From IMG/VR virus record IMGVR_UViG_2687453424_000001: 64,000 nt of DNA. The stretch is one strand, 5' to 3'. The notes under the pieces were generated by a model. The model was not told the DNA's origin, ran no database searches, and was given only the letters and a program-made list of their open reading frames with translations. This document shows, piece after piece, positions 29,217 through 52,945 of the stretch (position 1 is its first letter; each line of letters begins with the position of its first letter). Source of the stretch: a virus (Duplodnaviria > Heunggongvirae > Uroviricota > Caudoviricetes). Both the position numbers and the translations under genes were made by a program.

Positions 29217-31128
29217 CTATCTATTGGATTTCAAGGATTCAACTTGCGCTTTGCCACATGGACCCTTGGTCCTGATGTAAAGTCTGTACTCATCAAACGT
29301 CATGGGATTATACAGAGCCGGCCGGTCCTTACTCACTAGCTCCTTGGCTGGTTCGATGAGTAAATCACTCTTTGGGTTGTAGAAGAAAGCTAGGGAGACT
29401 CGATCTTTTGCTGAATTCACGATTACCCTGTGTTCAACACTCTTGTAAATTCCATTGCTCAGCACCTGAACGTGTTTCATGAAACCTATGATCAGCTTTC
29501 TTTTGCTCTTGAAACATGGGGCAATAATAATACAGAAGAAATTGGAGTGACAATCCTAGAGAGAAAGATCAGAAACCTGAAGCTGGTCTCCAACGTTGAC
29601 AATGAAAGCATTAGGAACAGGCTTCACGGTGATCCACTTGCCATTCTTACAAACTTGGAGTCCAGCTACGTCGTGATCAGGCAGGAGAATGGTCATGGCA
29701 CCAGGGTCTGAGTGTGAGGAAAGACCTAGGGTAAGGTCAGGCTGAGGACACTTTGGATAGAAGTTGACCCTTAAACAGGCACCGATGTCTTCTCCACCGA
29801 AGGCTTTCTGCAGGTAATCTTCTGGCAGTCCAAGATTTGTTGACATCGCCTTCAGCAGCCTTCCACACAGTTTTACAACTTCAGCACCATATTCTGCTAC
29901 CAGTTCCCTGCATCCAGATGTGAACAGCTAATGATTAGTAAATTCTGCTACCAGTTCCCTGCATGTTTAAGGTTAAAGCTCTCTCCATTCGTACATGTTA
30001 CATAAAACAGTAGAAAACAAATACCCTTTTCATTTTCAACAAAGTTGGGTCTACTATTTTGGTCGGGGATTAATATTTTAACCTGAATTTCTTTCTTTTT
30101 CCTTCCTTTTTCTGTTGTGAATTGTAAGCAAACTTGAAAACGACCAACACTCCTTTGCATGTGAAGTTGCAACTAATTAACTTTTGGTAAGGTTAGGAAA
30201 GATTCGAGGGTCAAAACCATCTCCATTGGATCGATGCAGGCCGTGCGATTTGGATATGGATTTGCTTTTTAATCATTCCATTTTGACTTCATGAAATCGT
30301 TTCCCTACCCTTAGAATTTTTGTCTTCTTTAATTATTGCCTTCAAAAGAGGAGATCAAAGTTGATCAATTAACCTCAGTCAATATGGGGGTGTTTATATC
30401 GTGAGACATCAGTTGCAACCCGGGCCAAATCTAAGATTATTGGTCAGTTGACCGAATCCCACTGTCCTAGTTTTTGTTCTCTTGGCAGATGTAAGAAAAG
30501 AGAAAGAATCTCTTTTCGTGCAGAGAGACAGGAACAAAAAGAAAACATCAACGTAAATAAAACATCATGGTATCACGTTTTGTAAAAAGATAAAATAAAC
30601 AATGAGGCAGGCAGGGGGTGCAGACCTGCAAGATGACGGTTGTGCAGGCCACTTGCTTTGATTCCTCGACGAAACCGGCATGAAGTGAAGAAAAAAGTAA
30701 TCGCTCCAATCCAGAATCGCTCCTTTCTCTACTCCCAAGCGACTGCCGTACCCTTCATAGGTACTTGGCTCGTTGGCATACCCTTGCTTCACTTCAAGCG
30801 GCAGGCTGAAGAATCGACGCCACACCTCTCGGATGCGCCTCATCAGCTCGTGGCTAACCCCATGGTTCACCGCCTGGAAGAAACCCCAGTCCCGGCACGT
30901 GCTGGAGATGCATCTCAAGGTCTCCTCCCGCAGGGCTAGGTCTTTCCCGAACAGGTTCTGGAGATCAACGACAGGAATGTCAACATGTTCTTCGATTTTG
31001 GAACATGTTTTCAGGCCAGGCCTGTCGGTTAGCGGCTTGATGTATCGCTCTGGAATGGCACGTATCCCACTGTCAGACAGAGACTGAACTCGAACCACCG
31101 GCTCAGGCCAACTCTGGAGACAATTCAT
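29217..31128 (-). CDS. 2-oxoglutarate/Fe(II)-dependent dioxygenase (DOXC class; jasmonate-induced-oxygenase / At5g05600-like), 3 exons, about 360 aa
   Basis: Exons on the minus strand 30626-31128, 29577-29907, 29217-29465, all ORF-anchored. N-terminus MNCLQSWPEPVVRVQSLSDSGIRAIPERYIKP; DIOX_N region (WGFFQAVNHGV); 2OG-FeII_Oxy fold with the HxD...H iron triad and RxS (SSHSDPGAMTILLPDHDVAGLQV...YKSVEHRVIVNSAKDRVSLAFFYNP). Confidence 0.92.
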
Positions 31129-33539: not shown

Positions 33540-36500
33540 NNNNNNNNNNNNNNNNNNNNNNNNNNNNNNNNNNNNNNNNNNNNNNNNNNNNNNNNNNNNN
33601 NNNNNNNNNNNNNNNNNNNNNNNNNNNNNNNNNNNNNNNNNNNNNNNNNNNNNNNNNNNNNNNNNNNNNNNNNNNNNNNNNNNNNNNNNNNNNNNNNNNN
33701 NNNNNNNNNNNNNNNNNNNNNNNNNNNNNNNNNNNNNNNNNNNNNNNNNNNNNNNNNNNNNNNNNNNNNNNNNNNNNNNNNNNNNNNNNNNNNNNNNNNN
33801 NNNNNNNNNNNNNNNNNNNNNNNNNNNNNNNNNNNNNNNNNNNNNNNNNNNNNNNNNNNNNNNNNNNNNNNNNNNNNNNNNNNNNNNNNNNNNNNNNNNN
33901 NNNNNNNNNNNNNNNNNNNNNNNNNNNNNNNNNNNNNNNNNNNNNNNNNNNNNNNNNNNNNNNNNNNNNNNNNNNNNNNNNNNNNNNNNNNNNNNNNNNN
34001 NNNNNNNNNNNNNNNNNNNNNNNNNNNNNNNNNNNNNNNNNNNNNNNNNNNNNNNNNNNNNNNNNNNNNNNNNNNNNNNNNNNNNNNNNNNNNNNNNNNN
34101 NNNNNNNNNNNNNNNNNNNNNNNNNNNNNNNNNNNNNNNNNNNNNNNNNNNNNNNNNNNNNNNNNNNNNNNNNNNNNNNNNNNNNNNNNNNNNNNNNNNN
34201 NNNNNNNNNNNNNNNNNNNNNNNNNNNNNNNNNNNNNNNNNNNNNNNNNNNNNNNNNNNNNNNNNNNNNNNNNNNNNNNNNNNNNNNNNNNNNNNNNNNN
34301 NNNNNNNNNNNNNNNNNNNNNNNNNNNNNNNNNNNNNNNNNNNNNNNNNNNNNNNNNNNNNNNNNNNNNNNNNNNNNNNNNNNNNNNNNNNNNNNNNNNN
34401 NNNNNNNNNNNNNNNNNNNNNNNNNNNNNNNNNNNNNNNNNNNNNNNNNNNNNNNNNNNNNNNNNNNNNNNNNNNNNNNNNNNNNNNNNNNNNNNNNNNN
34501 NNNNNNNNNNNNNNNNNNNNNNNNNNNNNNNNNNNNNNNNNNNNNNNNNNNNNNNNNNNNNNNNNNNNNNNNNNNNNNNNNNNNNNNNNNNNNNNNNNNN
34601 NNNNNNNNNNNNNNNNNNNNNNNNNNNNNNNNNNNNNNNNNNNNNNNNNNNNNNNNNNNNNNNNNNNNNNNNNNNNNNNNNNNNNNNNNNNNNNNNNNNN
34701 NNNNNNNNNNNNNNNNNNNNNNNNNNNNNNNNNNNNNNNNNNNNNNNNNNNNNNNNNNNNNNNNNNNNNNNNNNNNNNNNNNNNNNNNNNNNNNNNNNNN
34801 NNNNNNNNNNNNNNNNNNNNNNNNNNNNNNNNNNNNNNNNNNNNNNNNNNNNNNNNNNNNNNNNNNNNNNNNNNNNNNNNNNNNNNNNNNNNNNNNNNNN
34901 NNNNNNNNNNNNNNNNNNNNNNNNNNNNNNNNNNNNNNNNNNNNNNNNNNNNNNNNNNNNNNNNNNNNNNNNNNNNNNNNNNNNNNNNNNNNNNNNNNNN
35001 NNNNNNNNNNNNNNNNNNNNNNNNNNNNNNNNNNNNNNNNNNNNNNNNNNNNNNNNNNNNNNNNNNNNNNNNNNNNNNNNNNNNNNNNNNNNNNNNNNNN
35101 NNNNNNNNNNNNNNNNNNNNNNNNNNNNNNNNNNNNNNNNNNNNNNNNNNNNNNNNNNNNNNNNNNNNNNNNNNNNNNNNNNNNNNNNNNNNNNNNNNNN
35201 NNNNNNNNNNNNNNNNNNNNNNNNNNNNNNNNNNNNNNNNNNNNNNNNNNNNNNNNNNNNNNNNNNNNNNNNNNNNNNNNNNNNNNNNNNNNNNNNNNNN
35301 NNNNNNNNNNNNNNNNNNNNNNNNNNNNNNNNNNNNNNNNNNNNNNNNNNNNNNNNNNNNNNNNNNNNNNNNNNNNNNNNNNNNNNNNNNNNNNNNNNNN
35401 NNNNNNNNNNNNNNNNNNNNNNNNNNNNNNNNNNNNNNNNNNNNNNNNNNNNNNNNNNNNNNNNNNNNNNNNNNNNNNNNNNNNNNNNNNNNNNNNNNNN
35501 NNNNNNNNNNNNNNNNNNNNNNNNNNNNNNNNNNNNNNNNNNNNNNNNNNNNNNNNNNNNNNNNNNNNNNNNNNNNNNNNNNNNNNNNNNNNNNNNNNNN
35601 NNNNNNNNNNNNNNNNNNNNNNNNNNNNNNNNNNNNNNNNNNNNNNNNNNNNNNNNNNNNNNNNNNNNNNNNNNNNNNNNNNNNNNNNNNNNNNNNNNNN
35701 NNNNNNNNNNNNNNNNNNNNNNNNNNNNNNNNNNNNNNNNNNNNNNNNNNNNNNNNNNNNNNNNNNNNNNNNNNNNNNNNNNNNNNNNNNNNNNNNNNNN
35801 NNNNNNNNNNNNNNNNNNNNNNNNNNNNNNNNNNNNNNNNNNNNNNNNNNNNNNNNNNNNNNNNNNNNNNNNNNNNNNNNNNNNNNNNNNNNNNNNNNNN
35901 NNNNNNNNNNNNNNNNNNNNNNNNNNNNNNNNNNNNNNNNNNNNNNNNNNNNNNNNNNNNNNNNNNNNNNNNNNNNNNNNNNNNNNNNNNNNNNNNNNNN
36001 NNNNNNNNNNNNNNNNNNNNNNNNNNNNNNNNNNNNNNNNNNNNNNNNNNNNNNNNNNNNNNNNNNNNNNNNNNNNNNNNNNNNNNNNNNNNNNNNNNNN
36101 NNNNNNNNNNNNNNNNNNNNNNNNNNNNNNNNNNNNNNNNNNNNNNNNNNNNNNNNNNNNNNNNNNNNNNNNNNNNNNNNNNNNNNNNNNNNNNNNNNNN
36201 NNNNNNNNNNNNNNNNNNNNNNNNNNNNNNNNNNNNNNNNNNNNNNNNNNNNNNNNNNNNNNNNNNNNNNNNNNNNNNNNNNNNNNNNNNNNNNNNNNNN
36301 NNNNNNNNNNNNNNNNNNNNNNNNNNNNNNNNNNNNNNNNNNNNNNNNNNNNNNNNNNNNNNNNNNNNNNNNNNNNNNNNNNNNNNNNNNNNNNNNNNNN
36401 NNNNNNNNNNNNNNNNNNNNNNNNNNNNNNNNNNNNNNNNNNNNNNNNNNNNNNNNNNNNNNNNNNNNNNNNNNNNNNNNNNNNNNNNNNNNNNNNNNNN

Positions 36501-37908
36501 NNNNNNNNNNNNNNNNNNNNNNNNNNNNNNNNNNNNNNNNNNNNNNNNNNNNNNNNNNNNNNNNNNNNNNNNNNNNNNNNNNNNNNNNNNNNNNNNNNNN
36601 NNNNNNNNNNNNNNNNNNNNNNNNNNNNNNNNNNNNNNNNNNNNNNNNNNNNNNNNNNNNNNNNNNNNNNNNNNNNNNNNNNNNNNNNNNNNNNNNNNNN
36701 NNNNNNNNNNNNNNNNNNNNNNNNNNNNNNNNNNNNNNNNNNNNNNNNNNNNNNNNNNNNNNNNNNNNNNNNNNNNNNNNNNNNNNNNNNNNNNNNNNNN
36801 NNNNNNNNNNNNNNNNNNNNNNNNNNNNNNNNNNNNNNNNNNNNNNNNNNNNNNNNNNNNNNNNNNNNNNNNNNNNNNNNNNNNNNNNNNNNNNNNNNNN
36901 NNNNNNNNNNNNNNNNNNNNNNNNNNNNNNNNNNNNNNNNNNNNNNNNNNNNNNNNNNNNNNNNNNNNNNNNNNNNNNNNNNNNNNNNNNNNNNNNNNNN
37001 NNNNNNNNNNNNNNNNNNNNNNNNNNNNNNNNNNNNNNNNNNNNNNNNNNNNNNNNNNNNNNNNNNNNNNNNNNNNNNNNNNNNNNNNNNNNNNNNNNNN
37101 NNNNNNNNNNNNNNNNNNNNNNNNNNNNNNNNNNNNNNNNNNNNNNNNNNNNNNNNNNNNNNNNNNNNNNNNNNNNNNNNNNNNNNNNNNNNNNNNNNNN
37201 NNNNNNNNNNNNNNNNNNNNNNNNNNNNNNNNNNNNNNNNNNNNNNNNNNNNNNNNNNNNNNNNNNNNNNNNNNNNNNNNNNNNNNNNNNNNNNNNNNNN
37301 NNNNNNNNNNNNNNNNNNNNNNNNNNNNNNNNNNNNNNNNNNNNNNNNNNNNNNNNNNNNNNNNNNNNNNNNNNNNNNNNNNNNNNNNNNNNNNNNNNNN
37401 NNNNNNNNNNNNNNNNNNNNNNNNNNNNNNNNNNNNNNNNNNNNNNNNNNNNNNNNNNNNNNNNNNNNNNNNNNNNNNNNNNNNNNNNNNNNNNNNNNNN
37501 NNNNNNNNNNNNNNNNNNNNNNNNNNNNNNNNNNNNNNNNNNNNNNNNNNNNNNNNNNNNNNNNNNNNNNNNNNNNNNNNNNNNNNNNNNNNNNNNNNNN
37601 NNNNNNNNNNNNNNNNNNNNNNNNNNNNNNNNNNNNNNNNNNNNNNNNNNNNNNNNNNNNNNNNNNNNNNNNNNNNNNNNNNNNNNNNNNNNNNNNNNNN
37701 NNNNNNNNNNNNNNNNNNNNNNNNNNNNNNNNNNNNNNNNNNNNNNNNNNNNNNNNNNNNNNNNNNNNNNNNNNNNNNNNNNNNNNNNNNNNNNNNNNNN
37801 NNNNNNNNNNNNNNNNNNNNNNNNNNNNNNNNNNNNNNNNNNNNNNNNNNNNNNNNNNNNNNNNNNNNNNNNNNNNNNNNNNNNNNNNNNNNNNNNNNNN
37901 NNNNNNNN
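33540..37908. other. N-run, 4369 bp
   Basis: Continuous n; boundaries confirmed from ORF-track X positions. Confidence 0.99.
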
Positions 37909-38261
37909 TTTTTCATTGACTTTAAAAAAAAAAAACAACCAAATTTTATAGTATCACAAAGGCCAACACATGTCTTCTTCTATAAAGCGGTTGTGGTGGC
38001 CATATACTTATTTATTGCTTAATAGGTCCATGCATCTCATTTGATATGGATGGGTCACCTGACGTGAAAAACATTCATTTTTGGTGTAGCTTTAGGCCGA
38101 CATGATCTGCACCCTTATTTATTAATTCTTTTTAATCACTTAAAAGTTTTGATTCCATGATTTTTCATTTTCCAAATTTCCATTTTTACGTAAAAGATCA
38201 TGAATTAGAAATCATCTTTTGTTACAGAATCAATGTATCCTAACGATTGTTCAAGAAAAAA

Positions 38262-38670
38262 ATTAGGTCAAAATACCTAAAAAGTCCCTATATTCATGTA
38301 TTTTGTTCAATTTAATCCATGTACTCAAAATCGTAACATTTTTATCCTTTAATTTTGAAAATTGTTTCAATTTAGTCCCTCCTTCTAACTACATCTAATT
38401 TTACCTTTTAAATTAAAAGATGACATCAATAATGACATCAACGCTGACGTGACATATTTTGATGACGTGGTACCTTCACGATGACGTGGCATGACACGTG
38501 ATACCGACATGATGACTGGGCAGTGCCATCATTGGAACTAAATTTTGTGCTACGTCATAAGAATTAAATTGAATAAAAATATATAGTATAGAGACTAAAT
38601 TGAACATAAATGAAATGTTGAGGGACTAAATTAAAAAATATTTAAAAAATAGTAAATCTTTAAGTAGATG
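38262..38670. repeat. Left arm of a long inverted repeat running into the N-run
   Basis: Reverse complement of 38262-38670 aligns with 42171-42548 at roughly 85-90% identity (for example agggactaaatt...ttgaataaaaatatatagtatagagactaaattgaac against aatttagtccctcaacatctcaattttatttaatttagtctctatattatatatttttattcaa; also the gatgacgtgg/ccacgtcatc blocks). Outer end approximate. Confidence 0.85.
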
Positions 38671-41600
38671 NNNNNNNNNNNNNNNNNNNNNNNNNNNNNN
38701 NNNNNNNNNNNNNNNNNNNNNNNNNNNNNNNNNNNNNNNNNNNNNNNNNNNNNNNNNNNNNNNNNNNNNNNNNNNNNNNNNNNNNNNNNNNNNNNNNNNN
38801 NNNNNNNNNNNNNNNNNNNNNNNNNNNNNNNNNNNNNNNNNNNNNNNNNNNNNNNNNNNNNNNNNNNNNNNNNNNNNNNNNNNNNNNNNNNNNNNNNNNN
38901 NNNNNNNNNNNNNNNNNNNNNNNNNNNNNNNNNNNNNNNNNNNNNNNNNNNNNNNNNNNNNNNNNNNNNNNNNNNNNNNNNNNNNNNNNNNNNNNNNNNN
39001 NNNNNNNNNNNNNNNNNNNNNNNNNNNNNNNNNNNNNNNNNNNNNNNNNNNNNNNNNNNNNNNNNNNNNNNNNNNNNNNNNNNNNNNNNNNNNNNNNNNN
39101 NNNNNNNNNNNNNNNNNNNNNNNNNNNNNNNNNNNNNNNNNNNNNNNNNNNNNNNNNNNNNNNNNNNNNNNNNNNNNNNNNNNNNNNNNNNNNNNNNNNN
39201 NNNNNNNNNNNNNNNNNNNNNNNNNNNNNNNNNNNNNNNNNNNNNNNNNNNNNNNNNNNNNNNNNNNNNNNNNNNNNNNNNNNNNNNNNNNNNNNNNNNN
39301 NNNNNNNNNNNNNNNNNNNNNNNNNNNNNNNNNNNNNNNNNNNNNNNNNNNNNNNNNNNNNNNNNNNNNNNNNNNNNNNNNNNNNNNNNNNNNNNNNNNN
39401 NNNNNNNNNNNNNNNNNNNNNNNNNNNNNNNNNNNNNNNNNNNNNNNNNNNNNNNNNNNNNNNNNNNNNNNNNNNNNNNNNNNNNNNNNNNNNNNNNNNN
39501 NNNNNNNNNNNNNNNNNNNNNNNNNNNNNNNNNNNNNNNNNNNNNNNNNNNNNNNNNNNNNNNNNNNNNNNNNNNNNNNNNNNNNNNNNNNNNNNNNNNN
39601 NNNNNNNNNNNNNNNNNNNNNNNNNNNNNNNNNNNNNNNNNNNNNNNNNNNNNNNNNNNNNNNNNNNNNNNNNNNNNNNNNNNNNNNNNNNNNNNNNNNN
39701 NNNNNNNNNNNNNNNNNNNNNNNNNNNNNNNNNNNNNNNNNNNNNNNNNNNNNNNNNNNNNNNNNNNNNNNNNNNNNNNNNNNNNNNNNNNNNNNNNNNN
39801 NNNNNNNNNNNNNNNNNNNNNNNNNNNNNNNNNNNNNNNNNNNNNNNNNNNNNNNNNNNNNNNNNNNNNNNNNNNNNNNNNNNNNNNNNNNNNNNNNNNN
39901 NNNNNNNNNNNNNNNNNNNNNNNNNNNNNNNNNNNNNNNNNNNNNNNNNNNNNNNNNNNNNNNNNNNNNNNNNNNNNNNNNNNNNNNNNNNNNNNNNNNN
40001 NNNNNNNNNNNNNNNNNNNNNNNNNNNNNNNNNNNNNNNNNNNNNNNNNNNNNNNNNNNNNNNNNNNNNNNNNNNNNNNNNNNNNNNNNNNNNNNNNNNN
40101 NNNNNNNNNNNNNNNNNNNNNNNNNNNNNNNNNNNNNNNNNNNNNNNNNNNNNNNNNNNNNNNNNNNNNNNNNNNNNNNNNNNNNNNNNNNNNNNNNNNN
40201 NNNNNNNNNNNNNNNNNNNNNNNNNNNNNNNNNNNNNNNNNNNNNNNNNNNNNNNNNNNNNNNNNNNNNNNNNNNNNNNNNNNNNNNNNNNNNNNNNNNN
40301 NNNNNNNNNNNNNNNNNNNNNNNNNNNNNNNNNNNNNNNNNNNNNNNNNNNNNNNNNNNNNNNNNNNNNNNNNNNNNNNNNNNNNNNNNNNNNNNNNNNN
40401 NNNNNNNNNNNNNNNNNNNNNNNNNNNNNNNNNNNNNNNNNNNNNNNNNNNNNNNNNNNNNNNNNNNNNNNNNNNNNNNNNNNNNNNNNNNNNNNNNNNN
40501 NNNNNNNNNNNNNNNNNNNNNNNNNNNNNNNNNNNNNNNNNNNNNNNNNNNNNNNNNNNNNNNNNNNNNNNNNNNNNNNNNNNNNNNNNNNNNNNNNNNN
40601 NNNNNNNNNNNNNNNNNNNNNNNNNNNNNNNNNNNNNNNNNNNNNNNNNNNNNNNNNNNNNNNNNNNNNNNNNNNNNNNNNNNNNNNNNNNNNNNNNNNN
40701 NNNNNNNNNNNNNNNNNNNNNNNNNNNNNNNNNNNNNNNNNNNNNNNNNNNNNNNNNNNNNNNNNNNNNNNNNNNNNNNNNNNNNNNNNNNNNNNNNNNN
40801 NNNNNNNNNNNNNNNNNNNNNNNNNNNNNNNNNNNNNNNNNNNNNNNNNNNNNNNNNNNNNNNNNNNNNNNNNNNNNNNNNNNNNNNNNNNNNNNNNNNN
40901 NNNNNNNNNNNNNNNNNNNNNNNNNNNNNNNNNNNNNNNNNNNNNNNNNNNNNNNNNNNNNNNNNNNNNNNNNNNNNNNNNNNNNNNNNNNNNNNNNNNN
41001 NNNNNNNNNNNNNNNNNNNNNNNNNNNNNNNNNNNNNNNNNNNNNNNNNNNNNNNNNNNNNNNNNNNNNNNNNNNNNNNNNNNNNNNNNNNNNNNNNNNN
41101 NNNNNNNNNNNNNNNNNNNNNNNNNNNNNNNNNNNNNNNNNNNNNNNNNNNNNNNNNNNNNNNNNNNNNNNNNNNNNNNNNNNNNNNNNNNNNNNNNNNN
41201 NNNNNNNNNNNNNNNNNNNNNNNNNNNNNNNNNNNNNNNNNNNNNNNNNNNNNNNNNNNNNNNNNNNNNNNNNNNNNNNNNNNNNNNNNNNNNNNNNNNN
41301 NNNNNNNNNNNNNNNNNNNNNNNNNNNNNNNNNNNNNNNNNNNNNNNNNNNNNNNNNNNNNNNNNNNNNNNNNNNNNNNNNNNNNNNNNNNNNNNNNNNN
41401 NNNNNNNNNNNNNNNNNNNNNNNNNNNNNNNNNNNNNNNNNNNNNNNNNNNNNNNNNNNNNNNNNNNNNNNNNNNNNNNNNNNNNNNNNNNNNNNNNNNN
41501 NNNNNNNNNNNNNNNNNNNNNNNNNNNNNNNNNNNNNNNNNNNNNNNNNNNNNNNNNNNNNNNNNNNNNNNNNNNNNNNNNNNNNNNNNNNNNNNNNNNN

Positions 41601-42170
41601 NNNNNNNNNNNNNNNNNNNNNNNNNNNNNNNNNNNNNNNNNNNNNNNNNNNNNNNNNNNNNNNNNNNNNNNNNNNNNNNNNNNNNNNNNNNNNNNNNNNN
41701 NNNNNNNNNNNNNNNNNNNNNNNNNNNNNNNNNNNNNNNNNNNNNNNNNNNNNNNNNNNNNNNNNNNNNNNNNNNNNNNNNNNNNNNNNNNNNNNNNNNN
41801 NNNNNNNNNNNNNNNNNNNNNNNNNNNNNNNNNNNNNNNNNNNNNNNNNNNNNNNNNNNNNNNNNNNNNNNNNNNNNNNNNNNNNNNNNNNNNNNNNNNN
41901 NNNNNNNNNNNNNNNNNNNNNNNNNNNNNNNNNNNNNNNNNNNNNNNNNNNNNNNNNNNNNNNNNNNNNNNNNNNNNNNNNNNNNNNNNNNNNNNNNNNN
42001 NNNNNNNNNNNNNNNNNNNNNNNNNNNNNNNNNNNNNNNNNNNNNNNNNNNNNNNNNNNNNNNNNNNNNNNNNNNNNNNNNNNNNNNNNNNNNNNNNNNN
42101 NNNNNNNNNNNNNNNNNNNNNNNNNNNNNNNNNNNNNNNNNNNNNNNNNNNNNNNNNNNNNNNNNNNNNN
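38671..42170. other. N-run, 3500 bp, bracketed by the inverted repeat arms
   Basis: Continuous n. Confidence 0.99.
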
Positions 42171-42548
42171 AATTTAGTCCCTCAACATCTCAATTTTATT
42201 TAATTTAGTCTCTATATTATATATTTTTATTCAATCTACTCCTCATAATGTGACACAAAAAATTTTTTTGAAAATTTTTTGATTTGCCACGTTAGCACGT
42301 TGATGTCACGTCATCAAGTCGATGCCACGTGACATACCACGTCATCAAAATATGTCGCATCAATGCTGATGTCACTATTGACATCATCTTTTTAACTGCA
42401 AAATTGGATGTTGTTAGAGAGAAAGACTAAATTGAAGCAATTATTAAAATTAAAGGACTAAAATGTTACAATTTTGAGTATAAAGATTAAATTAAACAAA
42501 ATGTATGGTACAAAGACTTTTCAAGTATTTTGACTAAAAAATTAAGTT
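42171..42548. repeat. Right arm of the long inverted repeat
   Basis: See left arm; similarity stops about 42548. Confidence 0.85.
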
Positions 42549-43394
42549 AAACTGAAATCTAGAGATATTTTTGACCATATTACGATAAAATAAAGTATAT
42601 TAACAAAAGAAAAGTCAATAATGCATAATGGTGTGATTATTTTGGACAATACCTATAATTTAGATTCAATAAAAGCAGCAATAAAGTATTTCACTTTCCA
42701 TAAGAAGAGAAAATTAATTTTTTATAAGAATGTGATCGAACATGCTCGTATATATGTGTTATAAGTGCCATTCATTAGGAGTAAATTATACTGATAGACT
42801 TATATTATTTATAATTTAAAATTTTGGATGAATTACATTTTCATATTGTATGATTTTTTAATATTTTTATCACTTATTCATATAATCATGAATCCTATTA
42901 TACAAAAAAAAAATACTATTGTAAGTGTTTTCTTAATTAATTGGCATCGAACCAAGACTTGTTTAAACATTGTCGTAACGTGCGGGTCCGGGAACCCGAC
43001 CGTCAGACGTGATGTGAAAAACTCTAAATAAAACTAGGAGTCGCCACCAATCTTTTTACTAGGTGCGATTGGTCACTTATTGACTCGATTCTAATCGATG
43101 AAACTTTAAATTAATTTTAAGCCCACCGAAAAAAATCTTAAACTGGTCTACGATTTTCTAGATTTAGGCTCGGGAGTACGGTTACGCTCGGGGAATGACT
43201 AGCACCCCTGGACACCCTTTCCATGAATGGTACTATTCTTAGATTATCCTATTAGGCTTTAATTTTTAAATTCGTTATATTTTCTTAGTTATTATTCACT
43301 TATTTTATTTCCTATTTAACCTAAAATAGAATGCAAATGTGAGGCAAGATGAAATGTATGGTGTGAGATAAAAAATACCGAACGAATAACCTTT

Positions 43395-43720
43395 TATCGA
43401 AGATATTTTCCTGAATCCGCCCATCATACTGGTGAGACTCGAGGTATTCTCTCACCTAGGGAATTATCCAAGAAATCCGCCTTCGCAAATTCAACGAATA
43501 ATTCTCATCATCGGAGTTATCATACGTTTTTCTTTAAAAATAATGTTTTCGTGCACAATAGACCTAATATGAGTCAAAACCATTTATTAAAGATATTTTT
43601 CGAGTCCTCTCATCATACTGGTGGGATCTTGGGACACATCTTCACTTAGGGAACTTTTCGAGGGATACCCGCCTTCGTAAGATCCTAGGAAGATCCCATC
43701 ATCGGGGCTTAAACTCAATA
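43395..43720. repeat. Tandem duplication, two copies of a roughly 190-bp unit, about 75% identical
   Basis: ...tatcgaagatattttcctgaatccgcccatcatactggtgagactcgagg...catcatcggagttatc repeated as ...tattaaagatatttttcgagtcctctcatcatactggtgggatcttggg...catcatcggggcttaa. Confidence 0.7.
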
Positions 43721-43811: not shown

Positions 43812-44812
43812 TTATTTTCTATTTTATATTACTATTTAAAGTAGGGACCGATAATCTGATCTAATTGATTAATTTGTTCGTACAATTATTCTCTTTTAAG
43901 AGTATGCATTGGAAATTAAAAATTCATCAGACAATATAAATTTGACAATTTATTTTCGTTTTTAAGAATTTTTTGATAAATATCTCATCTTATACCGTAT
44001 GTACCGAGCTCAAGACTCGAAATTCAACTCATTGTATTCTTGCAATTGGATCTTGTAGCAAGCAAAGGAGTGGAACATTTTGCATTGCAAAGGGAAGTCC
44101 GACAGTAAAACAAAGCTCTTGGAGTAAAAGTCCAAAGAAGCTTGCAGACAAACAAAAAAGGAAACTCATGCAACGTACATGTACTACTATTTATAGTGTC
44201 ATATATTCTTTTTTTTTTAAGAATATTTTACGATACAACAGTTAATTAAGAGAGACGAATTGTATCATTCACTTGAAAGATTTATTTGTTATTCTACAAT
44301 GTTTTATTTTTCGGGTTTTTGTTATCTTTATGAATCTTAAGATTTAGACTCGATTTCTCTTGAAGATCATTATATGTTAATTGGTTTTTGAAGTAATAAA
44401 CTCTATTAAATGTAAAGATGTAAACCTTTGACAAATGATAATCTAACTAATTAGGGAAAGAATAGGTATTAAAAGAAAAAGAAAAGCACAACACTGCACT
44501 GCACTGCTAATGTTTACTCTAGCTTCTACATGTTAATCAATTACAAGAACAAGTCCAGACAAGACATATTTCTATATGTTACAAATTCAAAGCTCTCTCT
44601 TGTCAAAAGATAAGAGCATCGATTTTTTCTTTAATTTCTAATTAATATGAACATTAGTGAGTATTTTTGCTATTATTGTTTTACAATTTTTTCAACTCTC
44701 TTTTTTGACCTTTTAACATTCCTATATCAATATGGTGGACTGAAAATTGGATGACCATGTGGTTGTATGATTGATTATTGTTTCGTTTACTTATAAATGT
44801 ATGTGATGAAAA
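43812..44812. repeat. Copy 1 of a ~1 kb direct repeat
   Basis: Aligns colinearly with about 51910-52945 at roughly 90% identity, offset about 8.1 kb. The ORF-track entries 43973..44245 and 52147..52380 are the same sequence in the two copies. Confidence 0.85.
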
Positions 44813-45460: not shown

Positions 45461-48400
45461 NNNNNNNNNNNNNNNNNNNNNNNNNNNNNNNNNNNNNNNN
45501 NNNNNNNNNNNNNNNNNNNNNNNNNNNNNNNNNNNNNNNNNNNNNNNNNNNNNNNNNNNNNNNNNNNNNNNNNNNNNNNNNNNNNNNNNNNNNNNNNNNN
45601 NNNNNNNNNNNNNNNNNNNNNNNNNNNNNNNNNNNNNNNNNNNNNNNNNNNNNNNNNNNNNNNNNNNNNNNNNNNNNNNNNNNNNNNNNNNNNNNNNNNN
45701 NNNNNNNNNNNNNNNNNNNNNNNNNNNNNNNNNNNNNNNNNNNNNNNNNNNNNNNNNNNNNNNNNNNNNNNNNNNNNNNNNNNNNNNNNNNNNNNNNNNN
45801 NNNNNNNNNNNNNNNNNNNNNNNNNNNNNNNNNNNNNNNNNNNNNNNNNNNNNNNNNNNNNNNNNNNNNNNNNNNNNNNNNNNNNNNNNNNNNNNNNNNN
45901 NNNNNNNNNNNNNNNNNNNNNNNNNNNNNNNNNNNNNNNNNNNNNNNNNNNNNNNNNNNNNNNNNNNNNNNNNNNNNNNNNNNNNNNNNNNNNNNNNNNN
46001 NNNNNNNNNNNNNNNNNNNNNNNNNNNNNNNNNNNNNNNNNNNNNNNNNNNNNNNNNNNNNNNNNNNNNNNNNNNNNNNNNNNNNNNNNNNNNNNNNNNN
46101 NNNNNNNNNNNNNNNNNNNNNNNNNNNNNNNNNNNNNNNNNNNNNNNNNNNNNNNNNNNNNNNNNNNNNNNNNNNNNNNNNNNNNNNNNNNNNNNNNNNN
46201 NNNNNNNNNNNNNNNNNNNNNNNNNNNNNNNNNNNNNNNNNNNNNNNNNNNNNNNNNNNNNNNNNNNNNNNNNNNNNNNNNNNNNNNNNNNNNNNNNNNN
46301 NNNNNNNNNNNNNNNNNNNNNNNNNNNNNNNNNNNNNNNNNNNNNNNNNNNNNNNNNNNNNNNNNNNNNNNNNNNNNNNNNNNNNNNNNNNNNNNNNNNN
46401 NNNNNNNNNNNNNNNNNNNNNNNNNNNNNNNNNNNNNNNNNNNNNNNNNNNNNNNNNNNNNNNNNNNNNNNNNNNNNNNNNNNNNNNNNNNNNNNNNNNN
46501 NNNNNNNNNNNNNNNNNNNNNNNNNNNNNNNNNNNNNNNNNNNNNNNNNNNNNNNNNNNNNNNNNNNNNNNNNNNNNNNNNNNNNNNNNNNNNNNNNNNN
46601 NNNNNNNNNNNNNNNNNNNNNNNNNNNNNNNNNNNNNNNNNNNNNNNNNNNNNNNNNNNNNNNNNNNNNNNNNNNNNNNNNNNNNNNNNNNNNNNNNNNN
46701 NNNNNNNNNNNNNNNNNNNNNNNNNNNNNNNNNNNNNNNNNNNNNNNNNNNNNNNNNNNNNNNNNNNNNNNNNNNNNNNNNNNNNNNNNNNNNNNNNNNN
46801 NNNNNNNNNNNNNNNNNNNNNNNNNNNNNNNNNNNNNNNNNNNNNNNNNNNNNNNNNNNNNNNNNNNNNNNNNNNNNNNNNNNNNNNNNNNNNNNNNNNN
46901 NNNNNNNNNNNNNNNNNNNNNNNNNNNNNNNNNNNNNNNNNNNNNNNNNNNNNNNNNNNNNNNNNNNNNNNNNNNNNNNNNNNNNNNNNNNNNNNNNNNN
47001 NNNNNNNNNNNNNNNNNNNNNNNNNNNNNNNNNNNNNNNNNNNNNNNNNNNNNNNNNNNNNNNNNNNNNNNNNNNNNNNNNNNNNNNNNNNNNNNNNNNN
47101 NNNNNNNNNNNNNNNNNNNNNNNNNNNNNNNNNNNNNNNNNNNNNNNNNNNNNNNNNNNNNNNNNNNNNNNNNNNNNNNNNNNNNNNNNNNNNNNNNNNN
47201 NNNNNNNNNNNNNNNNNNNNNNNNNNNNNNNNNNNNNNNNNNNNNNNNNNNNNNNNNNNNNNNNNNNNNNNNNNNNNNNNNNNNNNNNNNNNNNNNNNNN
47301 NNNNNNNNNNNNNNNNNNNNNNNNNNNNNNNNNNNNNNNNNNNNNNNNNNNNNNNNNNNNNNNNNNNNNNNNNNNNNNNNNNNNNNNNNNNNNNNNNNNN
47401 NNNNNNNNNNNNNNNNNNNNNNNNNNNNNNNNNNNNNNNNNNNNNNNNNNNNNNNNNNNNNNNNNNNNNNNNNNNNNNNNNNNNNNNNNNNNNNNNNNNN
47501 NNNNNNNNNNNNNNNNNNNNNNNNNNNNNNNNNNNNNNNNNNNNNNNNNNNNNNNNNNNNNNNNNNNNNNNNNNNNNNNNNNNNNNNNNNNNNNNNNNNN
47601 NNNNNNNNNNNNNNNNNNNNNNNNNNNNNNNNNNNNNNNNNNNNNNNNNNNNNNNNNNNNNNNNNNNNNNNNNNNNNNNNNNNNNNNNNNNNNNNNNNNN
47701 NNNNNNNNNNNNNNNNNNNNNNNNNNNNNNNNNNNNNNNNNNNNNNNNNNNNNNNNNNNNNNNNNNNNNNNNNNNNNNNNNNNNNNNNNNNNNNNNNNNN
47801 NNNNNNNNNNNNNNNNNNNNNNNNNNNNNNNNNNNNNNNNNNNNNNNNNNNNNNNNNNNNNNNNNNNNNNNNNNNNNNNNNNNNNNNNNNNNNNNNNNNN
47901 NNNNNNNNNNNNNNNNNNNNNNNNNNNNNNNNNNNNNNNNNNNNNNNNNNNNNNNNNNNNNNNNNNNNNNNNNNNNNNNNNNNNNNNNNNNNNNNNNNNN
48001 NNNNNNNNNNNNNNNNNNNNNNNNNNNNNNNNNNNNNNNNNNNNNNNNNNNNNNNNNNNNNNNNNNNNNNNNNNNNNNNNNNNNNNNNNNNNNNNNNNNN
48101 NNNNNNNNNNNNNNNNNNNNNNNNNNNNNNNNNNNNNNNNNNNNNNNNNNNNNNNNNNNNNNNNNNNNNNNNNNNNNNNNNNNNNNNNNNNNNNNNNNNN
48201 NNNNNNNNNNNNNNNNNNNNNNNNNNNNNNNNNNNNNNNNNNNNNNNNNNNNNNNNNNNNNNNNNNNNNNNNNNNNNNNNNNNNNNNNNNNNNNNNNNNN
48301 NNNNNNNNNNNNNNNNNNNNNNNNNNNNNNNNNNNNNNNNNNNNNNNNNNNNNNNNNNNNNNNNNNNNNNNNNNNNNNNNNNNNNNNNNNNNNNNNNNNN

Positions 48401-50264
48401 NNNNNNNNNNNNNNNNNNNNNNNNNNNNNNNNNNNNNNNNNNNNNNNNNNNNNNNNNNNNNNNNNNNNNNNNNNNNNNNNNNNNNNNNNNNNNNNNNNNN
48501 NNNNNNNNNNNNNNNNNNNNNNNNNNNNNNNNNNNNNNNNNNNNNNNNNNNNNNNNNNNNNNNNNNNNNNNNNNNNNNNNNNNNNNNNNNNNNNNNNNNN
48601 NNNNNNNNNNNNNNNNNNNNNNNNNNNNNNNNNNNNNNNNNNNNNNNNNNNNNNNNNNNNNNNNNNNNNNNNNNNNNNNNNNNNNNNNNNNNNNNNNNNN
48701 NNNNNNNNNNNNNNNNNNNNNNNNNNNNNNNNNNNNNNNNNNNNNNNNNNNNNNNNNNNNNNNNNNNNNNNNNNNNNNNNNNNNNNNNNNNNNNNNNNNN
48801 NNNNNNNNNNNNNNNNNNNNNNNNNNNNNNNNNNNNNNNNNNNNNNNNNNNNNNNNNNNNNNNNNNNNNNNNNNNNNNNNNNNNNNNNNNNNNNNNNNNN
48901 NNNNNNNNNNNNNNNNNNNNNNNNNNNNNNNNNNNNNNNNNNNNNNNNNNNNNNNNNNNNNNNNNNNNNNNNNNNNNNNNNNNNNNNNNNNNNNNNNNNN
49001 NNNNNNNNNNNNNNNNNNNNNNNNNNNNNNNNNNNNNNNNNNNNNNNNNNNNNNNNNNNNNNNNNNNNNNNNNNNNNNNNNNNNNNNNNNNNNNNNNNNN
49101 NNNNNNNNNNNNNNNNNNNNNNNNNNNNNNNNNNNNNNNNNNNNNNNNNNNNNNNNNNNNNNNNNNNNNNNNNNNNNNNNNNNNNNNNNNNNNNNNNNNN
49201 NNNNNNNNNNNNNNNNNNNNNNNNNNNNNNNNNNNNNNNNNNNNNNNNNNNNNNNNNNNNNNNNNNNNNNNNNNNNNNNNNNNNNNNNNNNNNNNNNNNN
49301 NNNNNNNNNNNNNNNNNNNNNNNNNNNNNNNNNNNNNNNNNNNNNNNNNNNNNNNNNNNNNNNNNNNNNNNNNNNNNNNNNNNNNNNNNNNNNNNNNNNN
49401 NNNNNNNNNNNNNNNNNNNNNNNNNNNNNNNNNNNNNNNNNNNNNNNNNNNNNNNNNNNNNNNNNNNNNNNNNNNNNNNNNNNNNNNNNNNNNNNNNNNN
49501 NNNNNNNNNNNNNNNNNNNNNNNNNNNNNNNNNNNNNNNNNNNNNNNNNNNNNNNNNNNNNNNNNNNNNNNNNNNNNNNNNNNNNNNNNNNNNNNNNNNN
49601 NNNNNNNNNNNNNNNNNNNNNNNNNNNNNNNNNNNNNNNNNNNNNNNNNNNNNNNNNNNNNNNNNNNNNNNNNNNNNNNNNNNNNNNNNNNNNNNNNNNN
49701 NNNNNNNNNNNNNNNNNNNNNNNNNNNNNNNNNNNNNNNNNNNNNNNNNNNNNNNNNNNNNNNNNNNNNNNNNNNNNNNNNNNNNNNNNNNNNNNNNNNN
49801 NNNNNNNNNNNNNNNNNNNNNNNNNNNNNNNNNNNNNNNNNNNNNNNNNNNNNNNNNNNNNNNNNNNNNNNNNNNNNNNNNNNNNNNNNNNNNNNNNNNN
49901 NNNNNNNNNNNNNNNNNNNNNNNNNNNNNNNNNNNNNNNNNNNNNNNNNNNNNNNNNNNNNNNNNNNNNNNNNNNNNNNNNNNNNNNNNNNNNNNNNNNN
50001 NNNNNNNNNNNNNNNNNNNNNNNNNNNNNNNNNNNNNNNNNNNNNNNNNNNNNNNNNNNNNNNNNNNNNNNNNNNNNNNNNNNNNNNNNNNNNNNNNNNN
50101 NNNNNNNNNNNNNNNNNNNNNNNNNNNNNNNNNNNNNNNNNNNNNNNNNNNNNNNNNNNNNNNNNNNNNNNNNNNNNNNNNNNNNNNNNNNNNNNNNNNN
50201 NNNNNNNNNNNNNNNNNNNNNNNNNNNNNNNNNNNNNNNNNNNNNNNNNNNNNNNNNNNNNNNN
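45461..50264. other. N-run, 4804 bp
   Basis: Continuous n; boundaries confirmed from ORF-track X positions. Confidence 0.99.
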
Positions 50265-50660: not shown

Positions 50661-50769
50661 ATTTGTCAAGTAGGCATATTCGTTAATTATGTTATTAAAT
50701 AGAATATGGTGTAACGTTTAAAGTTATTGATCTTATTAAATGGAATGCAGTAGTTTTGATGATTTTTAG

Positions 50770-51090
50770 AATTACGTGATTAGTTTTTAGGTATTGCGTG
50801 ACTAACTTTAGATATTGCATAACTGACTTTGGGTATTGCGTGACTAGTTTTTGATATGACATTGCGTAATTAGTGTTTGACAAAGCATTACGAGACTAGT
50901 TGATAGACATTACGTGACTAGTTAATAAGGCGTTGCATGACTAGTTAGTAAGGCATTGTGTGACTAAGGCATTATTTAAAAATTAGTCACGTAATACCTA
51001 AAACTAATTACGTAATACCTAAAAATCAATCACGCAGTGATTAAATCACATAATGTCTAAAAATCGGTCTCGCAGTACTTAAAAATCAGT
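50770..51090. repeat. Compound array: about 9 direct copies of a 22-bp motif followed by about 5 copies in inverted orientation
   Basis: Direct copies gtattgcgtgactagttttt / gacattacgtgactagtt / ggcgttgcatgactagtt..., then aaaattagtcacgtaataccta / aaactaattacgtaatacc / aatcacgcagtgatt in reverse orientation. Coordinates approximate. Confidence 0.7.
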
Positions 51091-51909: not shown

Positions 51910-52945
51910 TTTCTCTCTAAATATAAAATATTACTATTTAAAGTAGAGACTGATAATCCAATCTAATTGATTAATTTGTTTGTTCAATTATTCCCTTTTA
52001 AGAGTATGCATTGGAAATTAATAATTCGTCAGACAATATAAATTGGACAATTTATTTTTATTTTTTAGAATTTTTCGATAAATATCTCATCTTATACCAT
52101 ATGTACTGAGCGCAAGACTCGAAATTCAACTTATTGTATTCTTGCAGTGGGAGCTTGTAGCAAGCAAAGGAGTGAAACATTTTGCATTGCAAAGGGAAGT
52201 CCGATACTAAAACAAAGCTCTTGGAGTAAAAGTCCCATACCCTTCCATAGTCGTCCTTCACGCACCCCATCCCCAATGAATTTTGCAGACAAACAAAAAA
52301 GGAAACTCATACAACGTACGTGTACCACTATTTATAGTGTCATATATACTTTTTTAATTTTGTTAGGATACAACAGCTAATTAAAAGAGATGAATTTTAT
52401 GATTCACTTGAAAGATTTACTTGTCATTCTATAATGTTTTATCTTTTGGGTTTTTGTTATCTTTATGAATCGTAAGACTTAGACTCGATTTCTCTTGAAG
52501 ATCATTATATGTTAATTGGTTTTTGAAGTAATAACTCTATTAAATGTAAAGATGTAAACCTTTGAAAAATGATAATCTAACTAATTAGGGAAAGGATAGG
52601 AATTAAAAGAAAAGGAAAAAGAAAAGCACTGCACTGCTATTGTTTACTCTAGCTTCTACATGTTAATCAATTACAAGAACATGGCCAGACAGGACATATT
52701 TCTACATGTTACAAATTCAAAGCTCTCTCTTGTCAAAAGATGAGAGCATCGATTTTTTCTTTAATTTCTAATTAATATGAACATTAGTGAGTATTTTTGC
52801 TATTATTGTTTTACAATTTTTTCAACTCTCTTTTTTGACCTTTTAACATTTCTATATCAATATGGTGGACTGAAAATTGGATGACCACGTGGTTGTATGA
52901 TTGATTCTTGTTTCGTTTACTTATTAATGTGTATGATGAAAGTTG
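51910..52945. repeat. Copy 2 of the ~1 kb direct repeat (carries a roughly 39-bp insertion relative to copy 1)
   Basis: See copy 1. Confidence 0.85.

What the first reader, a model, noticed from the sequence alone, without database searches (positions are those of the whole stretch)
38262..42548. Inverted repeat arms of about 400 bp bracketing a 3.5-kb N-run: candidate long-TIR DNA transposon or foldback element
Sequence on the two sides of the N-run 38671-42170 is reverse-complementary over roughly 400 bp, and the similarity stops at both outer ends. That is the geometry of an element with long terminal inverted repeats whose interior is unread. Any transposase or captured gene would be inside the N-run, so the element cannot be classified from here.
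Basis: seen in the sequence. Interest (0 to 1): 0.5.

Follow-up and report, generated by a model that had tools for sequence, protein, structure and literature searches.

The report
Non-coding long-inverted-repeat Mutator-like transposon in cacao
The two reverse-complementary flanks are the visible ends of one ordinary, non-coding "foldback" DNA transposon of the Mutator type in the cacao genome, and a gap-free cacao assembly shows that the unread middle is about 1.2 kb of AT-rich repeat with no transposase.

Summary
Window 38263-38632 and 42171-42537 are reverse complements at 76% identity over 372 columns (E 1e-67; best of 200 shuffles scored 37 against 293).

The outer ends are precise. The termini are GGTCAAAATACC... 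and ...GTATTTTGACT (38266 and 42535). They are flanked by a perfect 9-bp direct repeat, AAAAAATTA, at 38257-38265 and 42536-42544.

The window is Theobroma cacao. The same locus in the gap-free Pound7 assembly (L122, 99-99.8% identical) has the same termini and the same 9-bp duplication. There the element is 1,940 bp: two 738-bp arms at 80% identity around a 463-bp core, 21% GC, with no reading frame above 78 codons and no Pfam match. The 3,500 Ns stand for 1,170 bp in Pound7. The neighbouring 4,369-N run stands for about 43 bp, so N-run lengths here are not reliable.

Legume contigs from metagenomes carry multi-copy palindromic elements with similar termini and 9-bp duplications.

Verdict: one non-autonomous, Mutator-like long-TIR (foldback-type) transposon. 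This is ordinary. The one curiosity is a sub-threshold snoR8a-like snoRNA match in the core.

The parts
38257..38265 (.). Left copy of the 9-bp target-site duplication, AAAAAATTA
   Evidence: Identical 9-mer at 42536-42544. The 9-mer occurs only 3 times in 43,277 readable positions, and two of those are these sites. Chance of a 9/9 match at a given pair of sites is about 3.5e-5. The same duplication is present in Pound7.
38266..38670 (+). Visible part of the left terminal inverted repeat. The terminus is GGTCAAAATACCTAAAAAGTCCC. It carries GGGACTAAATTGAA-type subterminal motifs in both orientations and an ACGT-core cluster at about 38440-38500.
   Evidence: Reverse-complementary to 42171-42535. 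Equals positions 1-405 of the 1,940-bp Pound7 element, whose left arm runs to position 739. There are 4 ACGT cores in 116 nt against 0.18 per 100 nt in the window.
38671..42170 (.). N-run of 3,500 N that hides the inner parts of both arms and the core. The orthologous interval in Pound7 is 1,170 bp at 16% GC: the rest of the left arm, a 463-bp unique core and the rest of the right arm.
   Evidence: Window 37924-38670 matches L122 7520-6775 and window 42171-43836 matches L122 5603-3933.
42171..42535 (-). Visible part of the right terminal inverted repeat. Read on the minus strand the terminus is AGTCAAAATACTTGAAAAGTC. It has an ACGT-core cluster at about 42285-42345.
   Evidence: Equals positions 1576-1940 of the Pound7 element.
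42536..42544 (.). Right copy of the 9-bp target-site duplication, AAAAAATTA

Best explanation
Window 38266-42535 is a single insertion of a non-autonomous DNA transposon of the Mutator (MULE) type with very long, imperfect terminal inverted repeats. It is effectively a foldback element.

Shown:
- Two arms are reverse-complementary, over at least 367 bp in the window and 738 bp in the gap-free cacao allele.
- The termini are defined: GGTCAAAATACC... and ...GTATTTTGACT.
- A perfect 9-bp target-site duplication flanks the whole composite.
- In the readable allele there is no coding capacity.

Inferred:
- The element was inserted as one unit by a MURA-type DDE transposase encoded elsewhere in the genome. 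That enzyme binds the termini and subterminal motifs and makes a 9-bp staggered cut at an A/T-rich target.
- The insertion predates the split of the two cacao genotypes compared, since both carry it with the same duplication.
- The N-run is most likely a scaffold gap with a poor size estimate, caused by the 16%-GC palindromic interior. It is probably not 3.5 kb of real extra sequence.
For: Inverted repeat: 76% over 372 columns, E 1e-67, far above shuffles.

Target-site duplication: the 9/9 repeat AAAAAATTA abuts both termini, and the 9-mer occurs only 3 times in 43,277 positions.

Orthologous allele: the Pound7 locus (L122, GCA_036851155.1, 99-99.8% identical to the window) contains no N. It shows the same termini and duplication around a 1,940-bp element. 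The arms are 2-739 and 1203-1939 at 79.7% over 762 columns, the core is 463 bp, GC is 21%, and the longest stop-to-stop frame is 78 codons. There are no Pfam hits. The 38 left-arm bases that have no visible partner in the window pair at 90% in Pound7, and the hidden arm parts pair at 83%.

Relatives: the arm motif hit at least 120 plant contigs in metagenomes where about 1 was expected. They are legume-like, with 82% identity to Spatholobus. They carry multi-copy palindromic elements of 0.3-1.4 kb with termini GG[C/G/T]TTAA[A/T]TA...GTCCC. Two of them start GGTTAAAATAC, close to GGTCAAAATAC here. In the strict census 7 of 12 elements had at least 8/9 identical 9-bp flanks, against none in mismatched pairings.

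Arm divergence: in that legume family the arms of one copy are 71-76% alike while different copies are 83-90% alike. Imperfect long TIRs are therefore inherited, not a sign of two separate insertions.

Definition: MULEs generally have 9-11 bp duplications and long TIRs (PMC4334395).
Against: No transposase links this element to MURA. The superfamily call rests on duplication length, TIR length and resemblance of termini to other 9-bp-duplication elements.

No second copy was seen in cacao, but only about 65 kb of cacao DNA was available.

Identity to the legume termini is only about 50% over 70 nt, in AT-rich sequence.

Typical TIR-MULE arms are about 95% identical (PMC4334395); these are 76-80%.

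The window's genotype may truly differ from Pound7 inside the N-run. The two assemblies do differ structurally a little further right.
Confidence: 0.85

Rival explanations
1. In the genotype the window comes from, the element really is about 4.27 kb. The N-run would hide about 2.3 kb that Pound7 lacks, either a nested insertion of another transposon or a coding interior (a transposase or a captured gene).
For: The N-run is 3,500 long. The two cacao assemblies do differ structurally just to the right of the element: window 43837-44812 faces an unrelated 2,183 bp in L122. Young insertions are both polymorphic and hard to assemble.
Against: The adjacent N-run of 4,369 N corresponds to only about 43 bp in Pound7, so lengths of N-runs here look unreliable. 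The hidden interval in Pound7 is 16% GC and palindromic, which is a plausible cause of an assembly break by itself. All related elements found were 0.3-1.4 kb and non-coding.
Confidence: 0.2
2. The arms are two independent insertions of a MITE of about 370 bp that happen to lie head to head.
For: Each visible arm folds on itself (DNA folding z -4.6 and -4.7). Each arm carries the GGGACTAAATT motif in both orientations. The sequence after the left arm (AAAAAATAT) matches 7 of 9 bases of the left flank.
Against: One perfect 9-bp duplication flanks the composite, not each arm. No GGTCAAAATAC-type terminus exists at the inner ends. In Pound7 the inverted repeat continues about 370 bp beyond the supposed inner ends, to 738 bp per arm. 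Relatives are single palindromic units.
Confidence: 0.03
3. It is a mobile element of another superfamily, or a one-off inverted duplication made by replication or repair rather than a transposon.
For: There is no transposase and no second cacao copy in the sequence available. A TA dinucleotide also flanks GGTC...GAC, so a 2-bp duplication cannot be formally excluded from this one copy.
Against: The 9/9 flank match is very unlikely by chance. It agrees with the 9-bp duplications of multi-copy elements with the same terminal architecture. Expected alternatives are absent: 8-bp (hAT), 3-bp TWA (PIF), CACTA termini and the Stowaway TIR consensus.
Confidence: 0.08

Closest known systems
Non-autonomous Mutator-like elements (MULEs), for example maize Mu1. 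Its size of about 1.4 kb, TIRs of about 0.2 kb and 9-bp duplication are quoted from my own knowledge. General MULE features are from PMC4334395.
   Same: 9-bp target-site duplication, long terminal inverted repeats, no transposase of its own, kilobase size.
   Different: The arms are much longer (738 bp, 76% of the element) and much less alike (76-80%) than the roughly 95% typical of TIR-MULEs. No MURA-encoding partner was identified.
Mutator-type MITEs (DTM families of the P-MITE database, PMC3964958) and the legume palindromic elements found here (for example L087:1493-2825, L011:5704-6226, L025:3738-4238, L091:11799-12616)
   Same: Terminal architecture GG-Y-Y-AAA-TA...GTCCC, 9-bp duplications in A/T-rich targets, near-complete palindromes, AT-rich non-coding interiors.
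   Different: At 1,940 bp it is above the 800-bp limit used for MITEs. Sequence similarity to the legume elements is limited to a motif block of 45-97 nt. It has a 463-bp non-palindromic core.
Foldback (FB) elements of Drosophila and foldback-type plant elements (from my own knowledge: long inverted repeats, 9-bp duplication for FB)
   Same: Most of the element is one long imperfect inverted repeat. The predicted whole-element hairpin pairs 605 of 739 left-arm bases with the right arm.
   Different: The arms are not built from clear tandem sub-repeat arrays. Tandem Repeats Finder found only 11-21-nt two-copy repeats. No relationship by sequence was tested.
Pack-MULEs (MULEs carrying captured host sequence; my own knowledge)
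   Same: A unique core lies between the long TIRs. It contains a snoR8a-like stretch.
   Different: No protein-coding fragment is present. The snoRNA match is below Rfam's gathering score.

Membership tests
Mutator superfamily (MULE) | Target-site duplication of 9-11 bp | tested here: met
   Perfect 9-bp AAAAAATTA at 38257-38265 and 42536-42544. The bases just outside differ, so the repeat is exactly 9 bp.
Mutator superfamily (MULE) | Terminal inverted repeats, usually long (100 bp or more) | tested here: met
   At least 367 bp in the window and 738 bp in Pound7. Identity of 76-80% is lower than the roughly 95% typical of TIR-MULEs (PMC4334395).
Mutator superfamily (MULE) | MURA-type DDE transposase, either in the element or in a partner sharing its termini | not testable with these tools
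   The Pound7 allele has no frame above 78 codons and no Pfam hit, so the element is non-autonomous. A partner cannot be searched without a cacao genome database. None was found in 1 Mb of legume loci.
Mutator superfamily (MULE) | Multiple copies in the same genome with independent duplications | not testable with these tools
   Only about 65 kb of cacao DNA was available and it holds one copy. Related legume families are multi-copy.
MITE (P-MITE definition, PMC3964958) | Shorter than 800 bp | tested here: not met
   1,940 bp in Pound7 and nominally 4,270 bp in the window.
MITE (P-MITE definition, PMC3964958) | TIRs plus target-site duplication, no transposase | tested here: met
Foldback-type element | Inverted repeats make up most of the element | tested here: met
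   2 x 738 bp of 1,940 bp. Predicted hairpin.
Foldback-type element | Arms built of tandem sub-repeats | tested here: not met
   Only short two-copy repeats were found. Motif copies spaced about 30 nt apart are dispersed and degenerate (family D11).
Pack-MULE | Captured host gene fragment between the TIRs | tested here: inconclusive
   No protein-coding fragment. The snoR8a-like match scores 33.7 bits against a gathering score of 37.
hAT | 8-bp duplication, short TIRs | tested here: not met
   The duplication is 9 bp and the TIRs are hundreds of bp.
PIF/Harbinger (Tourist) | 3-bp TWA duplication | tested here: not met
   The flanks would read TTA and TAA, which is not a direct repeat.
CACTA | CACTA termini, 2-3-bp duplication | tested here: not met
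   The termini are GGTCAAAATAC and AGTCAAAATAC.
Tc1/mariner (Stowaway) | TA duplication and CTCCCTCC-type TIR | tested here: not met
   A TA is present on both sides but lies within the 9-bp repeat. The TIR consensus is absent.

The most novel reading that the evidence does not exclude
The unique 463-bp core, hidden by the N-run in the window, carries a genuine relative of the plant C/D-box snoRNA snoR8a. It lies at L122 6009-6100, element positions 1079-1170, on the strand opposite to the window's plus strand. The long-TIR Mutator-like element would then be a vehicle that captured a snoRNA gene and could copy it, a non-coding-RNA counterpart of a Pack-MULE.
Probability: 0.2. Interest if true: 0.35.

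Novelty: new member of a known kind. Interest (0 to 1): 0.12.

Why it matters
It matters little beyond annotation. It is one more non-autonomous Mutator-like element in a TE-rich intergenic stretch of cacao.

Three practical points follow.
- N-run lengths in this window should not be read as real distances: 3,500 N stands for 1,170 bp and 4,369 N for about 43 bp in a gap-free assembly.
- Long AT-rich palindromic elements like this one are a plausible cause of such scaffold gaps.
- In this kind of element the arms are inherently only 70-80% alike. Arm divergence therefore cannot be used to date the insertion or to argue for two separate elements.

The snoRNA-like core and the ACGT-core (G-box-like) clusters in the arms are leads for anyone studying what such elements carry next to genes.

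Tried and rejected
Exact-protein look-ups with small ORFs in or beside the arms and beside another N-run found nothing. The homologue search with that exon gave no same-species protein.

Literature searches found nothing relevant. I searched for the run accession DRR396126 and for the terminal and motif strings.

A scan of viral contigs and of the fetched loci with a 20-mer conserved between the arms gave no hit.

I looked for an autonomous partner in 1 Mb of legume loci. ORF clustering gave only copia, gypsy, LINE and hAT proteins and host genes. No pair of family-type termini more than 0.9 kb apart had a matching 9-bp flank.

I considered that the N-runs might mask retroelement or other annotated genes. 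This is rejected because the last N-run starts two codons into the CDPK coding sequence, and because the N-runs correspond to much shorter intervals in Pound7.

I considered dating the insertion from 24% arm divergence. This is rejected because related copies share the same arm divergence.

Rfam found no gathering-level match in the window. The legume elements gave only sub-threshold miRNA-precursor matches.
Full report
**Observation.** The window has five N-runs. The one in question is 38671-42170, exactly 3,500 N. A local alignment pairs 38263-38632 with the reverse complement of 42171-42537: 288 matches, 72 mismatches, 17 gap columns, 76%. BLAST gives E 1.6e-67. The alignment score is 293, against a mean of 24 and a maximum of 37 for 200 shuffles. 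There is no other copy of either arm in the readable 43 kb. The outer ends of similarity are sharp. The inner ends are not real ends: the right arm matches from its first readable base, and the last 14 columns are identical.

**Anatomy in the window.** The element starts GGTCAAAATACCTAAAAAGTCCC at 38266. On the other strand it starts AGTCAAAATACTTGAAAAGTC at 42535. Immediately outside lie AAAAAATTA (38257-38265) and AAAAAATTA (42536-42544). This 9-mer occurs three times in 43,277 readable positions, and two of those are these sites. The chance of a 9/9 match at a given pair of sites is about 3.5e-5 for this window's 9-mer spectrum.

Each arm carries GGGACTAAATTGAA-like motifs in both orientations. 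Each also has a cluster of ACGT cores, 4-5 in about 110 nt against 0.18 per 100 nt overall. Each arm folds on itself better than shuffles do (z -4.6 and -4.7). That raised the rival idea of two separate small elements.

**Relatives elsewhere.** A pattern taken from the arms (GAGACTAAATT, 17-23 nt, GGGACTAAATT) hit at least 120 metagenome contigs, where about one was expected by chance. These are plant nuclear DNA, legume-like by a subtilase exon that is 82% identical to Spatholobus. They share only a motif block of 45-97 nt with the arms.

They are full of palindromic elements of 0.3-1.4 kb, with termini of the form GG[C/G/T]TTAA[A/T]TA followed by GTCCC. Two of them begin GGTTAAAATAC, close to GGTCAAAATAC here.

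Their flanks are 9-bp direct repeats. Perfect cases:
- L087: TTTCTTTAA
- L011:5704-6226: ATAAAGATA
- L025:3738-4238: AAAAATAAA
- L025:4402-4779: TATAATATA
- L066: TATAAAAAA
- L116: TAAATTTTA
- L052:10352-11228: TTTTTCTTT

Several others match 8/9. In a strict census 7 of 12 elements had at least 8/9, against none among mismatched pairings.

In the 1.3-1.4-kb family the two arms of one copy are 71-76% alike, while different copies are 83-90% alike. The arm divergence is therefore inherited from the master copy. It says nothing about age or about separate origins.

**The unread interior.** The 2OG-oxygenase exon at 30565-31128 is identical to an ORF on a read-assembly contig, with 2 differences in 1,590 nt including introns. 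It clusters with Theobroma cacao protein KAK6290647.1. The DNA around that gene in the Pound7 assembly was fetched as L122 (GCA_036851155.1, CM072262.1:40551857-40573768). It contains no N and is collinear with the window:
- Window 19226-33539 matches L122 21912-7586 at 99.8%.
- Window 37924-38670 matches L122 7520-6775 at 99.6%.
- Window 42171-43836 matches L122 5603-3933 at 99.0%.

So the window is cacao of another genotype.

In Pound7 the element has the same termini and the same AAAAAATTA on both sides, and it is 1,940 bp long. It aligns to its own reverse complement as arms 2-739 and 1203-1939, 79.7% over 762 columns, around a 463-bp core. Identity is 76% in the part visible in the window, 90% for the 38 left-arm bases that lack a visible partner, and 83% in the hidden arm parts.

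The interval replaced by 3,500 N is 1,170 bp with 16% GC. The longest stop-to-stop frame in the element is 78 codons, and the core frames have no Pfam match. The neighbouring N-run of 4,369 N corresponds to about 43 bp in Pound7.

**Interpretation.** This is one insertion, not two. A single 9-bp duplication brackets the composite, and the inverted repeat continues far beyond the supposed inner ends. A 9-bp duplication with long TIRs is the signature of the Mutator superfamily (PMC4334395). No other plant TIR superfamily fits: hAT makes 8 bp, PIF makes 3 bp, CACTA makes 2-3 bp with CACTA ends, and Stowaway makes TA with a different TIR.

The element has no transposase. It must have been moved in trans by a MURA-type enzyme. 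This step is inferred, because no partner element could be searched. It is too long to be called a MITE under the 800-bp convention (PMC3964958). It is best described as a non-autonomous, foldback-type Mutator-like element. Both cacao genotypes carry it, so it is not a recent insertion.

**The N-run.** Two readings remain. The first is a scaffold gap with a poor size estimate, caused by the very AT-rich palindromic interior. I favour this because the next N-run is also grossly oversized relative to Pound7. The second is a true extra 2.3 kb in the window's genotype. This is possible because the two assemblies do differ structurally just to the right, from 43837. The last N-run begins two codons into a CDPK coding sequence, so the N-runs do not follow gene annotation.

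**A curiosity.** Rfam gives one sub-threshold match in the core. It is snoR8a, a plant C/D-box snoRNA, matched full length at L122 6009-6100 with 33.7 bits against a gathering score of 37, and E 0.0017 for the 2.2-kb search. Two blocks are nearly identical to the consensus, and the terminal stem is kept through G-U pairs. However, the D' box reads CUAA and the guide segments differ. Nine legume loci (60 kb) gave no snoRNA match, only weak matches to MITE-derived miRNA precursor families. It may be a captured, decayed snoRNA copy or a chance match.

**Verdict.** The finding is real and correctly read as a long-TIR or foldback transposon. It is an ordinary member of a known kind.

Noticed in passing
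L122:6009-6100 (hidden under window N-run 38671-42170): The element's unique core gives a full-length but sub-threshold Rfam match to the C/D-box snoRNA snoR8a: 33.7 bits against gathering 37, E 0.0017 in a 2.2-kb search. Two blocks are nearly identical to the consensus, but the D' box is mutated.
   Followed up: partly
window 33540-37908: This 4,369-N run corresponds to only about 43 bp of AT-rich sequence in the gap-free Pound7 cacao assembly (L122 about 7521-7585). N-run lengths in this window are therefore unreliable, or they hide genotype-specific insertions.
   Followed up: partly
window 43826-44811 and 51928-52941: Direct repeats of about 1 kb, 88.7% identical, bracket the N-run 45461-50264, like LTRs. 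No TG...CA ends or 5-bp duplication were seen. Pound7 has an unrelated 2,183 bp where the first copy lies.
   Followed up: partly
window 60276 (start of the last N-run): The N-run begins two codons after the start of a CDPK13-like coding sequence. The readable part starts [13 protein letters not shown] on the minus strand and is 95% identical to Hibiscus CDPK13.
   Followed up: no
window 38440-38500 and 42285-42345: Both arms hold a cluster of ACGT-core motifs such as GACGTGGC and CCACGTCA, which are G-box/ABRE-like. They are about 20 times denser than in the rest of the window. Similar CACGTG clusters sit in the legume relatives.
   Followed up: partly
L002-L121 (metagenome contigs, legume-like host DNA): There are many palindromic Mutator-type elements with 9-bp duplications. 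In the 1.3-1.4-kb family the arms of one copy (71-76%) are less alike than different copies (83-90%). Some small elements give weak matches to Medicago-type miRNA precursor families MIR2646, MIR2655 and MIR2600.
   Followed up: partly
window 50760-50818 and 50969-51028; 43388-43514 and 43578-43705: A 61-bp inverted repeat (85%) and a diverged direct repeat of about 130 bp (74%) lie in the TE-rich intergenic stretch.
   Followed up: no
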